Positions 8,383-10,272 of a stretch of 39,974 bases of DNA are shown here, piece after piece. The notes under the pieces were generated by a model that was given only the letters and a program-made list of their open reading frames with translations, was not told where the DNA came from and ran no database searches. This DNA comes from Candidatus Aenigmatarchaeota archaeon (GTDB lineage: Archaea > Aenigmatarchaeota > Aenigmatarchaeia > CG10238-14): positions 1-39,974 of the forward strand of contig JAWBZR010000005.1 in NCBI GenBank assembly GCA_044343545.1, in the 5' to 3' direction. Positions within the stretch are counted from its first letter, which is position 1. Each line of letters begins with the position of its first letter. The position numbers were made by a program, and so were the translations under genes.

Positions 8383-8512
8383 ATGTTATGAGATTAGTGC
8401 TGCAAAATTTAAATAAATTTACTCAAATAGTTGTAGTTTAAAGAAAAATGTTTTGTTAAACGTTTGACTTTGAACATTTTTATCAAAATTATAAAATAAA
8501 AAAATTGAAAAA

Positions 8513-9093: not shown

Positions 9094-10272
9094 CTATAAC
9101 CTGTATCTCAATATAGCCCCAATACCTCCCATCTCCTTAAGTGCAGCTCCCTCCCTGGAATCTTTAGAAATAATTTCAACATTACCTCCCATCTCCTTAA
9201 CTTTTTCTGACAAAATCTCTGCCAACTCTCTTTCTTCCTGAATCTTCAAAGACGAGCCACAATTTGGACAGGTGAATGTTTCGCCTTTCTTTCCCGCTTT
9301 TTCAGCCCTAAAACCACACTGGCATCCAAGCGTATATTTTGACCAATTAAATGCTTCAGAAATAAGAAGCGTATCAACAGCTCCGTATTCTATCGCCTTA
9401 ACAACATCTTCTATTTTATATACAGCCAAACCGTCTTCTTTTTGCAAATGAAGAAAGAAATTTTGAAGAATTTGTCTTTCCTTTACAAGTGAAGCTTCCC
9501 TTAATAACTCTTGTCCCCTTTCAACCATTTCCTCCAAACCTTGCATGCCTAAATAGCTTGTGTCTACCACCCCTAAAACTTTTTTTTGTAGATGATATTT
9601 CAAAAACTCTCCCTCGTAAAATTTCTCTTTTAAAGGACCAGGACCGCCAATTATGATACCCTTTAGGTTTGGATAATTGTCGAATATTTCAGATGCTTCC
9701 TCTCCGGTTTTTTTTAGATGCTCTAATTTTGCTTCTTCTCTTATTCTAGCATATCTTTGCTGGCTCCATCCACCTTTCGATGTCTTACCAGGAACCAAGC
9801 TATCTATGTGCTTCTCTATCACAATTTTTTTTCCTATTAATAAACCTATGTCGCTTCCCGAACTGTCTAAAACAATAAGACCGTATATTTCTTTTTCTTT
9901 CACCATCTCTTTTAATGGCTCTAAGACGAAACGTTGATCACACCAATACATTTTCACAGTCAATTCTTCAGGCGGCTCTATGGACCATAGCCTTATATCG
10001 CTTTCACCCTCACTTTGCGAAACATTCCCACAAAAAATAACTAACCCATTTGGAGGCGTTTCTTTAAACTGTCTCAAATGATTTGAAATCTTTTCCAACG
10101 CATCCAAGACGTTTTTTCGTGTAGTTCTAGATTTCACGTTTTGCGTAACTGCATACTCTTGCTTAAGCATGTTCAAAACTTCTTGTAAATTGAAGCCTTT
10201 AGGAATGTAAAGGGATATAAGCTCTGTATGTCTTCCTTTTATATTTTCCAACTCTTCAATAATCTTTTTCAA
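9094..10272 (-). CDS. prf1: Archaeal peptide chain release factor aRF1 with atypical GGWSQ motif; start uncertain (TTG 10272 or ATT 10302)
   Basis: GRHTELISLYIP, NVKS, PPNGLVIFCG, YWCDQRF, GGPGPLK, C-terminal Zn ribbon, GGIGAILRY. Confidence 0.93.
   Translation of the reverse strand: MKKIIEELENIKGRHTELISLYIPKGFNLQEVLNMLKQEYAVTQNVKSRTTRKNVLDALEKISNHLRQFKETPPNGLVIFCGNVSQSEGESDIRLWSIEPPEELTVKMYWCDQRFVLEPLKEMVKEKEIYGLIVLDSSGSDIGLLIGKKIVIEKHIDSLVPGKTSKGGWSQQRYARIREEAKLEHLKKTGEEASEIFDNYPNLKGIIIGGPGPLKEKFYEGEFLKYHLQKKVLGVVDTSYLGMQGLEEMVERGQELLREASLVKERQILQNFFLHLQKEDGLAVYKIEDVVKAIEYGAVDTLLISEAFNWSKYTLGCQCGFRAEKAGKKGETFTCPNCGSSLKIQEERELAEILSEKVKEMGGNVEIISKDSREGAALKEMGGIGAILRYRL

What the first reader, a model, noticed from the sequence alone, without database searches (positions are those of the whole stretch)
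9760..9774. aRF1 carries GGWSQ in place of the near-universal GGQ catalytic motif
Seen: minus-strand codons GGT GGA TGG AGC CAG CAA give PGKTSKGGWSQQRYAR in an otherwise complete three-domain aRF1. Gln to TGG needs at least two base changes, so a single sequencing error is unlikely. Established: the GGQ Gln positions the hydrolytic water and is the methylation target in class I release factors, while shifted-Gln GGxSQ/GGSQ loops characterise the VLRF1 (Vms1-like) clade and some baeRF1 proteins. Inference: either a canonical terminator using a shifted Gln, or a ribosome-rescue or tRNA-cleaving variant that keeps a decoding domain.
Basis: partly seen in the sequence, partly recalled or inferred. 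Interest (0 to 1): 0.8.

Follow-up and report, generated by a model that had tools for sequence, protein, structure and literature searches.

The report
Release factor without its catalytic glutamine
The only translation-termination factor of this tiny archaeon, and of a large group of its relatives, has tryptophan or methionine where all known release factors have a supposedly indispensable glutamine, and the enzyme that normally methylates that glutamine was not found in their genomes.

Summary
Window 9094-10272 (-) encodes a complete three-domain aRF1 (TIGR03676 454 bits, cut-off 234.7). Its loop reads KGGWSQQRY, with W169 (TGG, 9766-9768) aligned to the Gln of GGQ in solved aRF1/eRF1. Contigs of three other runs from two studies show the same letters.

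It is the only aRF1 found in this 651-kb, 90%-complete Aenigmatarchaeota genome. All three stop codons end long frames.

The change is lineage-wide. The motif was read in 156 related genomes: 94 lack Gln (W 52, M 38, Y 2, A 1, F 1), including 61 of 61 in the window's order. No genome showed a second aRF1. The decoding motifs and GG stay invariant, and dS is saturated while dN is 0.09-0.26.

The aRF1 Gln methyltransferase Mtq2 (TIGR00537) was found in 1 of 83 non-Gln genomes (borderline) and in 56 of 62 GGQ genomes. This may reflect a single evolutionary event.

Best reading: a working canonical terminator whose Gln side chain became dispensable. A Gln two residues on (GGxSQ, as reported for aVLRF-1/acVLRF-1) is enriched but not obligatory. 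The rescue or tRNA-cleaving reading has no support. My library searches found no report of this. New variant of a known kind; high interest.

The parts
9094..10272 (-). aRF1 gene, 392 aa, TTG start, the only class I release factor found in the genome
   Evidence: ORF. TIGR03676 454 bits against cut-off 234.7. Best PDB sequence hits are aRF1/eRF1, E 1e-70. AF2 model pLDDT 89.9. Foldseek top hits 4af1 aRF1 and 5lzt eRF1, TM 0.81. Only aRF1 match in G000.
9901..10269 (-). N (stop-codon decoding) domain, residues 2-124
   Evidence: Pfam eRF1_1, 69.9 bits.
10129..10140 (-). NVKS, the NIKS-type decoding motif (residues 45-48)
   Evidence: N45 and K47 are invariant and S48 nearly so, in both the 76 non-Gln and the 56 GGQ rows. 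The motif name NIKS is recalled.
9928..9948 (-). YWCDQRF, the YxCxxxF decoding motif (residues 109-115)
   Evidence: Y109, C111 and F115 are invariant in both groups and in alignment A1. The motif name is recalled.
9499..9885 (-). M (peptidyl-tRNA hydrolysis) domain, residues 130-258
   Evidence: Pfam eRF1_2, 118.5 bits. Same coordinates.
9760..9774 (-). GGWSQ loop, in place of GGQS(A/S)
   Evidence: G167, G168, S170 and R173 are invariant in 60 sequences.
9766..9768 (-). TGG codon of W169, in the column of the catalytic or methylated Gln
   Evidence: Alignments to 4af1, 3agk and 8ip8. Contigs of 3 other runs are identical. TGG in 52 relatives, ATG in 38.
9760..9762 (-). CAG codon of Q171, the Gln two residues downstream (candidate shifted Gln)
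   Evidence: Gln here in 70 of 76 non-Gln genomes against 4 of 57 GGQ genomes.
9097..9486 (-). C domain, residues 263-392
   Evidence: Pfam eRF1_3, 96.1 bits.
9259..9324 (-). four-Cys insert (C317, C319, C335, C338) in the C domain, a probable zinc ribbon
   Evidence: C317 and C335 are invariant, C319 and C338 are in at least 90% of 60 sequences. The zinc-ribbon reading is inference.

Best explanation
This is the organism's single, functional, omnipotent class I release factor. A large clade of Aenigmatarchaeota has replaced the Gln of the GGQ loop with Trp, Met, Phe, Tyr or Ala.

Shown:
- The gene is the only aRF1 found.
- It is under purifying selection.
- It keeps the stop-codon decoding motifs, the two glycines and the downstream Ser and Arg residues.
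- All three stop codons are used.
- The Gln N5-methyltransferase Mtq2 was not found where the Gln is gone.

Inferred mechanism:
- aRF1 still enters the A site with aEF1-alpha and triggers peptidyl-tRNA hydrolysis.
- The GG turn and the backbone NH of residue 169 position the water in the peptidyl transferase centre.
- The side chain at 169 only has to fill the pocket that methyl-Gln normally packs into. Trp or Met do this without methylation, and Ala leaves it empty.
- Co-varying changes at +2 (Ala/Ser to Gln) and +5 (Phe to Tyr) remodel the start of the following helix. They may supply a polar group near the water.
- Once the target Gln was gone, Mtq2 had no substrate and was lost. The reverse order is equally possible: Mtq2 was lost first, and a residue needing no methylation was then favoured.
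For: Identity and integrity:
- TIGR03676 scores 454 bits and all three eRF1 domains are present.
- The fold matches aRF1/eRF1.
- dN is 0.089-0.262 while dS is saturated or about 3 against six relatives.

Sole factor:
- G000 holds only this aRF1 plus a pelota on C1.
- No RF-1 domain was found in G000. It was found in 1 of 41 relatives, G019, which is 72% complete.
- No acVLRF1 hit other than the aRF1 itself.
- No genome of the 149 with a match shows a second aRF1 at E <= 1e-20. Two matches occur only where an intein splits the gene.

Standard code: of 413 frames of at least 200 aa, TAA ends 200, TGA 149 and TAG 64. None of the 26 tRNAs found is a suppressor.

Lineage-wide:
- The motif was read in 156 genomes: Q 62, W 52, M 38, Y 2, A 1, F 1. 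In the window's order, 61 of 61 are non-Gln.
- The best 120 of 4919 homologous clusters are W 89, A 15, M 12, F 3, Y 1, Q 0.

Decoding motifs and GG are equally invariant in non-Gln and GGQ rows.

Mtq2:
- TIGR00537 is over its cut-off in 1 of 83 non-Gln genomes. That one is G007, at 87.5 bits against 87. It is over the cut-off in 56 of 62 GGQ genomes.
- The best hit in the own genome is 32.9 bits.
- PrmC is nowhere over its cut-off.
- The NPPF methyltransferase on C7 is a different family.

Literature, passages read:
- The Gln side chain has a packing role, methylation adds van der Waals contacts with U2506, A2451 and 2452, and the water is held by the main-chain NH, the side-chain carbonyl and the A76 2'OH (PMC5799190).
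- Recalled, not read here: Shaw and Green 2007, in which most Gln substitutions in bacterial RFs keep much of the hydrolysis rate.
Against: - There is no biochemical, transcript or proteome evidence. No RNA run was listed.
- Classical mutagenesis describes the GGQ Gln as essential in vivo in yeast and E. coli. I saw only the titles of Frolova 1999 and Mora 2003, in reference lists; the content is recalled.
- Each genome is an 85-97% complete MAG, so a second factor cannot be excluded in any single one.
- The Mtq2 association may rest on one event. There is only 1 independent pair on starred branches, 4 on all branches. A single origin of all 78 non-Gln rows is not rejected (p-AU 0.70).
- Weaker HemK2-like hits of 74-88 bits exist in non-Gln genomes G007, G020, G043 and G113.
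- Ala at 169, in 15 of 120 clusters, does not fit a bulky-packer role.
- The AF2 loop is of low confidence: pLDDT 67 for residues 161-170.
Confidence: 0.72

Rival explanations
1. Shifted catalytic Gln. The loop has been re-registered to GGxSQ, as in aVLRF-1 and acVLRF-1. Q171, not residue 169, now coordinates the hydrolytic water and is essential. W or M is only a spacer.
For: - Gln at +2 occurs in 70 of 76 non-Gln genomes against 4 of 57 GGQ genomes.
- Over all 201 tree rows, non-Gln rows are SQ 76 and SA 8. GGQ rows are SA 65, SS 27, SQ 23 and SH 2.
- Phylogenetically independent pairs: 8 pairs, same direction 5.3, opposite 0.4, median p 0.06.
- Outlying GGW proteins (P0067, P0091, P0129, P0032) also read GGWSQ.
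- Burroughs and Aravind 2019 give GGxSQ as the catalytic motif of aVLRF-1 and acVLRF-1 (passage).
Against: - Six of 76 non-Gln genomes (GGWSAN, GGWSAS, GGMSAR) lack Gln at +2, as do the clusters GGASHARY (2 clusters) and GGWSAQRY (1 cluster).
- There is no insertion in the loop relative to solved aRF1/eRF1. The same paper says VLRF-1 loops are longer.
- SQ also occurs in ordinary GGQ aRF1s, 23 rows, so it could be an inherited background.
- In the AF2 model, Q171 lies in the first turn of helix 169-198 (low-confidence region).
- The sign test does not reach 0.05.
Confidence: 0.3
2. aRF1 has become a decoding-only factor. It recognises stop codons, but the ester bond is cut by something else: another protein, or a ribosome-intrinsic activity of the unusual peptidyl transferase centre of this phylum.
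For: - The 23S rRNA of the phylum departs from the Rfam archaeal consensus at highly conserved PTC positions: GAUAAC to GAUAAU, and ACcUCGAUGUC to CCGUCGCUGUC in G001. It varies among genomes.
- A PTH2 gene is present.
Against: - The PTC departures are shared by GGQ and non-Gln genomes and do not track the motif. For example, G101 (GGQ) reads GCCG like its GGW kin.
- PTH2 is the ordinary archaeal off-ribosome hydrolase (recalled) and rings in all four archaeal control genomes.
- GG, S170, R173 and R176 remain invariant. That is not expected if the loop no longer reaches the PTC; pelota, for comparison, has lost it (passage).
- No other eRF1-like or RF-1-like gene was found.
Confidence: 0.06
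3. A Vms1-like, rescue or tRNA-cleaving variant: the loop acts as a nuclease on the CCA end, or works only on stalled ribosomes.
For: The motif resembles GGxSQ of the VLRF-1-related families. The Pfam acVLRF1 model matches at 51 bits.
Against: - The acVLRF1 match lies under the much stronger eRF1_2 match, and the same model rings in all four archaeal control genomes.
- NCBIfam acVLRF1 scores 47.6 bits against a cut-off of 125.
- The protein has the full decoding domain with NIKS-type and YxCxxxF motifs.
- It is the only aRF1 found, so normal termination would have no factor.
- A separate pelota covers rescue.
Confidence: 0.03
4. Artefact or decaying gene: a sequencing or assembly error, or a pseudogene whose function is supplied by an unassembled canonical copy.
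For: The genome is a 22-contig, 90%-complete assembly.
Against: - Letters are identical in contigs of three other runs from two studies.
- The same state occurs in 94 other genomes, including assemblies of 3-9 contigs such as G072, G037 and G104.
- The frame is intact and dS is saturated at dN 0.09-0.26.
- No second copy appears in any of the 149 genomes with a match.
Confidence: 0.01

Closest known systems
Canonical archaeal aRF1 / eukaryotic eRF1 (TIGR03676; PDB 4af1, 3agk, 5lzt)
   Same: Same three domains, same decoding motifs, same GG turn, same loop length, and the same Ser and Arg residues after the loop. It is orthologous by HMM score and by tree, and single copy.
   Different: The Gln of GGQ is Trp here (Met, Phe, Tyr or Ala in relatives). 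The +2 residue is Gln instead of Ala/Ser, and the +5 residue is Tyr instead of Phe. The modifying enzyme Mtq2 was not found.
aVLRF-1 and acVLRF-1 (Vms1-like release factors of archaea and of actinobacteria/chloroflexi; Burroughs and Aravind 2019)
   Same: The catalytic-loop pattern GGxSQ is letter for letter the pattern reported for these families (passage).
   Different: Those families lack the aRF1 decoding domain and act, or are predicted to act, in ribosome rescue. Here the architecture and best HMM are aRF1. NCBIfam acVLRF1 scores 47.6 bits against a cut-off of 125. The pattern here is a convergence, or an inherited SQ background.
Pelota/Dom34 and Balon-type aeRF1 homologues
   Same: They are members of the same superfamily that have lost the catalytic Gln.
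   Different: They have also lost loop conservation and the decoding domain, and they are non-catalytic (passage). Here the loop stays invariant apart from one residue, and the genome has its own pelota.
Laboratory GGQ Gln mutants of bacterial RF1/RF2 and of eRF1
   Same: A class I release factor with another residue at the Gln position. The published view is that the side chain mainly packs in the PTC and that the backbone NH helps hold the water (PMC5799190).
   Different: Those are engineered and reported as harmful or lethal in vivo (recalled). Here the substitution is natural, fixed, and kept across a deep clade as the only release factor.

Membership tests
aRF1/eRF1 (class I release factor of archaea and eukaryotes) | Whole-protein match to the equivalog model TIGR03676 over its curated cut-off | tested here: met
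   454 bits against 234.7, covering model positions 5-402.
aRF1/eRF1 (class I release factor of archaea and eukaryotes) | Three domains eRF1_1, eRF1_2 and eRF1_3, and the aRF1 fold | tested here: met
   Pfam 69.9, 118.5 and 96.1 bits. AF2 pLDDT 89.9. Foldseek 4af1 E 4e-41 and 5lzt TM 0.81.
aRF1/eRF1 (class I release factor of archaea and eukaryotes) | Stop-codon decoding motifs (NIKS-type, YxCxxxF) | tested here: met
   NVKS at 45-48 and YWCDQRF at 109-115. Both are invariant in non-Gln and GGQ relatives alike.
aRF1/eRF1 (class I release factor of archaea and eukaryotes) | GGQ catalytic tripeptide | tested here: not met
   GGW at 167-169. For this reason I file it as a divergent variant of the aRF1 orthologue group, not as a canonical GGQ release factor.
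aRF1/eRF1 (class I release factor of archaea and eukaryotes) | Peptide release activity at stop codons | not testable with these tools
   Inferred only, from its being the sole copy, from purifying selection and from use of all three stop codons.
aVLRF-1 / acVLRF-1 | GGxSQ loop | tested here: met
   GGWSQ. The motif definition comes from the passage.
aVLRF-1 / acVLRF-1 | Family model over its cut-off, and an architecture without the aRF1 decoding domain | tested here: not met
   NCBIfam acVLRF1 47.6 bits against 125. The eRF1_1 domain is present. The Pfam acVLRF1 hit lies under the stronger eRF1_2 hit, and the model also rings in the archaeal control genomes.
Pelota/Dom34 | Match to TIGR00111 over its cut-off | tested here: not met
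   101.3 bits against 177.65. The genome's pelota is a separate 348-aa frame on C1.
Mtq2/HemK2 (aRF1 Gln N5-methyltransferase), as partner system | A gene matching TIGR00537 over 87 bits in the same genome | tested here: not met
   The best hit in G000 is 32.9 bits. It is over the cut-off in 1 of 83 non-Gln genomes and in 56 of 62 GGQ genomes.

The most novel reading that the evidence does not exclude
A deep clade of Aenigmatarchaeota terminates all translation with a release factor that has no catalytic Gln and no Gln methylation. The 'universal' GGQ glutamine would then be dispensable in vivo. Trp or Met would act as a genetically encoded stand-in for N5-methyl-glutamine, possibly made tolerable by this phylum's unusual peptidyl transferase centre (U at the 2452 equivalent; C, U or A at the 2503 equivalent).
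Probability: 0.45. Interest if true: 0.88.

Novelty: new variant of a known kind. Interest (0 to 1): 0.82.

Why it matters
GGQ is described as universally conserved in class I release factors of all three domains. Its Gln methylation is described as present in all archaea (van Tran 2018, passages).

This clade would be a natural experiment on a long-running question: what the Gln side chain really contributes to peptide release. The candidates are water coordination, packing, and exclusion of other nucleophiles. In the clade, the only release factor carries Trp, Met, Phe, Tyr or Ala instead, and Mtq2 was not found.

The clade supplies ready-made variants (GGW-SQ, GGM-SQ, GGA-SQ, GGW-SA) for release assays and structures. 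It also warns against using GGQ as a filter when annotating aRF1. One 2026 study separates Balon from aeRF1 by absence of the NIKS and GGQ motifs (passage).

Tried and rejected
- The Rfam LSU search over the phylum failed. I used a DNA query instead.
- I tested whether 23S rRNA PTC nucleotides co-vary with loss of the Gln. I read 41 PTC stretches (own genome plus 20 non-Gln and 20 GGQ genomes; several unreadable because of inserts or contig ends). The unusual PTC letters are shared by both groups and do not track the motif. Rejected as an explanation specific to the non-Gln clade.
- The NPPF methyltransferase at C7:15035-15709 was tested as a possible divergent Mtq2. It scores 30.5 bits on TIGR00537. 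G074 has both this gene and Mtq2, and G001 lacks it. Rejected.
- Independent origins outside the phylum: P0067, P0091 and P0129 (GGW), P0027 (GGF), P0134 and P0140 (GGE), P0115 (GGS). Each is a 90% cluster of one or two sequences, and I could not place them taxonomically. They are kept only as leads.
- Expression: no RNA holder was listed.
- Multiple origins inside the phylum: the free trees need 7-10 changes. But the tree with all 78 non-Gln rows held as one clade is better by 28.9 lnL, p-AU 0.70. Multiple origins inside the phylum are therefore not shown. The group was named after seeing the trait.
- Shaw and Green 2007 is not held. Searches for mutagenesis papers gave only listings, apart from PMC5799190.
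- A TGG-read-as-Gln code change was considered and rejected. Relatives carry ATG, TTT, TAY or GCA at the same codon.
- One search failed through my own wrong frame. It was repeated without that reference.
Full report
**The observation**

On the minus strand, GGT GGA TGG AGC CAG occupies 9774-9760. It lies in a 392-aa ORF, 9094-10272, that reads ...VPGKTSKGGWSQQRYARIREE.... The ORF has the three eRF1 domains. It scores 454 bits on the aRF1 equivalog model TIGR03676 against a cut-off of 234.7. Pelota (101 against 177.65) and acVLRF1 (47.6 against 125) stay below their cut-offs.

HMMER alignments to solved aRF1 (4af1, 3agk) and eRF1 (8ip8) place W169 exactly in the Gln column of GGQ, with no indel in the loop. 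An AlphaFold2 model built on 60 sequences has pLDDT 89.9. The long helix starts at residue 169, and the loop block 161-170 has pLDDT 67. Foldseek's best matches are aRF1 4af1 and ribosome-bound eRF1 5lzt, TM 0.81.

Contigs of three other public runs from two studies cover the motif without a single difference. The run that may be the source was left out.

**The organism and the gene's status**

The window is contig C18 of a 651,488-bp, 22-contig genome, 90% complete, GC 33%. Record titles of its relatives name Candidatus Aenigmatarchaeota.

- The genome holds only this aRF1 plus one pelota on C1.
- It holds no bacterial RF-1 domain.
- It holds no other acVLRF1-like gene.
- It holds an ordinary PTH2 and a Trm112.
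- Of 413 frames of at least 200 aa, TAA ends 200, TGA 149 and TAG 64. None of the 26 tRNAs found reads a stop codon.

The gene must therefore serve normal termination.

**How widespread the change is**

I read the motif in 156 related genomes. These were 28 of the 29 loci, plus 128 regions fetched for the 150-genome phylum sample.

| Residue at the Gln position | Genomes |
|---|---|
| Q | 62 |
| W | 52 |
| M | 38 |
| Y | 2 |
| A | 1 |
| F | 1 |

- All 61 genomes read in the window's order (families f1-f7) are non-Gln.
- Outside the order, families f10, f14, f15, f22 and 11 of 13 members of f20 are GGW.
- Seventeen other families are GGQ.
- Five genomes of the sample could not be read.
- No genome shows a second aRF1 at E <= 1e-20. 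Two matches occur only where an intein splits the gene.
- Among the best 120 of 4919 homologous 90% clusters, none has Gln: W 89, A 15, M 12, F 3, Y 1.
- Codons at the site are TGG, ATG, TTT, TAC/TAT and GCA, against CAG/CAA. The site has changed several times by multi-step paths, mostly to large hydrophobic or aromatic residues.

**Selection**

Against six relatives, dN is 0.089-0.262, while dS is about 3 or too saturated to compute.

In 76 non-Gln and 56 GGQ rows, the following are equally invariant: G13, T16, E17, N45, K47, N54, V55, Y109, C111, F115, K163, G167, G168, S170, R173, R176 and R178.

Two neighbouring positions co-vary with the loss:

| Position | Non-Gln rows | GGQ rows |
|---|---|---|
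| +2 | Q 70, A 6 | A 29, S 23, Q 4 |
| +5 | Y 68, F 8 | F 50, Y 6 |

The motif has changed as a block, from GGQS(A/S)xRF to GG(W/M)SQxRY.

**The methyltransferase**

- TIGR00537 (HemK2/MTQ2) is over its 87-bit cut-off in 56 of 62 GGQ genomes, typically at 100-196 bits and full length.
- It is over the cut-off in 1 of 83 non-Gln genomes. That one is G007, at 87.5 bits, matching model positions 6-148 in a 384-aa frame.
- In the 41 relatives including the own genome, it is over the cut-off in 1. The own genome's best hit is 32.9 bits.
- PrmC is nowhere over its cut-off.
- A 225-aa NPPF methyltransferase on C7 is a different family. G074 has it beside Mtq2, and G001 lacks it.

Results against a clean picture:
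- Six GGQ genomes lack a hit.
- Weaker hits of 74-88 bits occur in non-Gln genomes G007, G020, G043 and G113.
- The association may be a single event. There is only 1 independent pair on starred branches, 4 on all branches.

**Origins**

Both trees were built with the trait's own columns removed. A FastTree of 201 rows and an IQ-TREE of 143 rows place most non-Gln rows in one group of 76-77 rows. That group is sister to a 48-row all-GGQ clade.

- Two GGQ rows of f20 (G101, G127) sit inside the non-Gln group with weak support.
- The f5/g14 GGW group sits apart on a long branch.
- The free trees need 10 changes and 7 changes.
- Holding all 78 non-Gln rows of the phylum together gives a tree 28.9 lnL better than the free quick tree, p-AU 0.70.

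One origin inside the phylum is therefore not rejected. The group was defined by the trait after the tree was seen.

Non-Gln aRF1s that fall outside the phylum are P0067, P0091 and P0129 (GGW), P0027 (GGF), and P0134 and P0140 (GGE). Each is a 90% cluster of one or two sequences. They are leads only.

**Mechanism**

The Gly-Gly turn, Ser and the arginines that dock the loop are invariant. The protein is the only release factor found. I therefore read it as an active terminator.

Published structural work (PMC5799190, passages) gives the Gln side chain a packing role in the PTC. It has methylation adding van der Waals contacts with U2506, A2451 and 2452. It has the water held by the main-chain NH, the side-chain carbonyl and the A76 2'OH.

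On that basis, Trp, Met, Phe or Tyr could fill the pocket without methylation. The backbone NH of residue 169 would remain available. That would make Mtq2 superfluous. The steps from 'fills the pocket' onward are inference. The Ala forms, 15 of 120 clusters, show that bulk is not required.

The main rival is that Q171 has taken over. GGxSQ is exactly the motif reported for aVLRF-1 and acVLRF-1 (passage). The enrichment of Gln at +2 is strong in counts and suggestive in independent pairs (5.3 against 0.4 of 8, median p 0.06). But natural GGWSAN, GGWSAS, GGMSAR and GGASHA forms lack it, and the loop is no longer than in canonical aRF1.

I rate the other readings as unlikely: decoding-only, tRNA-cleaving, and artefact. 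The reasons are given under the rival explanations.

**The ribosome side**

The own 23S rRNA is at C22:7779-10954. Against the Rfam archaeal consensus, the close relative G001 reads GAUAAU for GAUAAC and CCGUCGCUGUC for ACcUCGAUGUC. By the E. coli numbering I recall, these are positions 2452, 2497, 2499 and 2503.

Across the 37 stretches readable there (19 non-Gln, 18 GGQ), the two letters before GUCGG are CU, AU, UU or CC in both groups. They do not track the motif. G101 (GGQ) reads like its GGW kin. The unusual PTC is a property of the phylum. At most it is a permissive background.

**What is known**

| Search terms | Result |
|---|---|
| aRF1 / GGQ / DPANN | Listing seen |
| GGQ motif / Woesearchaeota / Pacearchaeota / Nanoarchaeota / Mtq2 / release factor | Listing seen |
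| Aenigmarchaeota / Aenigmatarchaeota / release factor / aRF1 / GGQ / termination factor | Listing seen |
| GGW + GGQ + eRF1 | 0 papers |
| GGQ + DPANN | 3 papers |

Of the three GGQ + DPANN papers, I read passages of two, and neither describes this. The third, a 2025 preprint on archaeal ribosome hibernation factors that looks like an earlier version of the paper read (my inference), I saw only as a listing and abstract.

van Tran et al. [quoted passage not shown] Supplementary alignments of these papers could not be seen and might contain such sequences. The library does not cover most subscription journals.

**Verdict**

This is a real, lineage-wide, selected variant of aRF1 that breaks the GGQ rule, in genomes where Mtq2 was not found. 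It is a new variant of a known kind. Interest is high, because it contradicts a textbook universal and makes the role of the Gln side chain directly testable with natural variants.

Noticed in passing
relatives: L034 (G028), L148-L153, L155-L170; protein P0001: Many relatives carry an in-frame intein inserted exactly between GGx and the following Ser (GGx|C...HN|S). This is seen in 23 of the 156 genomes read: M 14, Q 5, W 4. Inserts are about 130-580 aa. P0001, 82% identical to the window protein, has the Intein_splicing domain and two LAGLIDADG_3 domains. Of the 19 papers holding 'aRF1' and 'intein', the 10 listed had unrelated titles.
   Followed up: partly
own genome G000:C22:8255-8388 and 8398-8430 (23S rRNA gene, minus strand; outside the window): The own 23S rRNA gene has a 33-nt and a 134-nt insertion on either side of the CUCGGGGAU(AA) strand of the peptidyl transferase centre. 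Both are absent from same-genus genomes G001 and G003. They are probably small introns; the boundaries are ambiguous by a few bases. G001 has a different insertion after GCUGGGU.
   Followed up: partly
L206 (G001) 1100-1401 and 23S stretches L206-L245: The PTC strands of this phylum depart from the Rfam archaeal LSU consensus at upper-case (highly conserved) positions: GAUAAC to GAUAAU, and UCGAUGUC to UCGCUGUC. The A of CGAUG (E. coli A2503 by my recollection) is kept in only 4 of 19 non-Gln and 3 of 18 GGQ genomes read. The others have C or U there, and some have C at the next position.
   Followed up: partly
window 9751-9753 (Y174 codon) and relatives: The residue five positions after the Gln column co-varies with the loss. 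It is Tyr in 68 of 76 non-Gln rows and Phe in 50 of 56 GGQ rows.
   Followed up: no
own genome G000:C7:15035-15709: A 225-aa NPPF class I methyltransferase (MTS/PrmA-like, 52 bits) is present here and in G074 (49% identical). It was not found in same-genus G001, nor in G101, G132 or G150. Its substrate is unknown.
   Followed up: partly
G007:C23:4650-5078, G020:C10:3382-3858, G043:C1:543045-543548, G113:C7:35460-35876: A few non-Gln genomes hold HemK2-like genes that score 74-88 bits on TIGR00537, around or below the cut-off. Some lie in long frames of 384-397 aa. They may be a paralogous methyltransferase or a relic of Mtq2.
   Followed up: no
protein P0134: An aRF1 with GGE instead of GGQ is named by NCBI as aRF-1 of a bacterium, [Eubacterium] cellulosolvens. 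It is a singleton cluster. Contamination or transfer was not examined.
   Followed up: no
window 9740-9777: In runs X2 and X3, a second, deeper-covered contig of another organism matches only these 38 bases of the GGW loop, with 5 differences, and then diverges (records 2 and 6). This suggests a related non-Gln aRF1 in the same communities.
   Followed up: no
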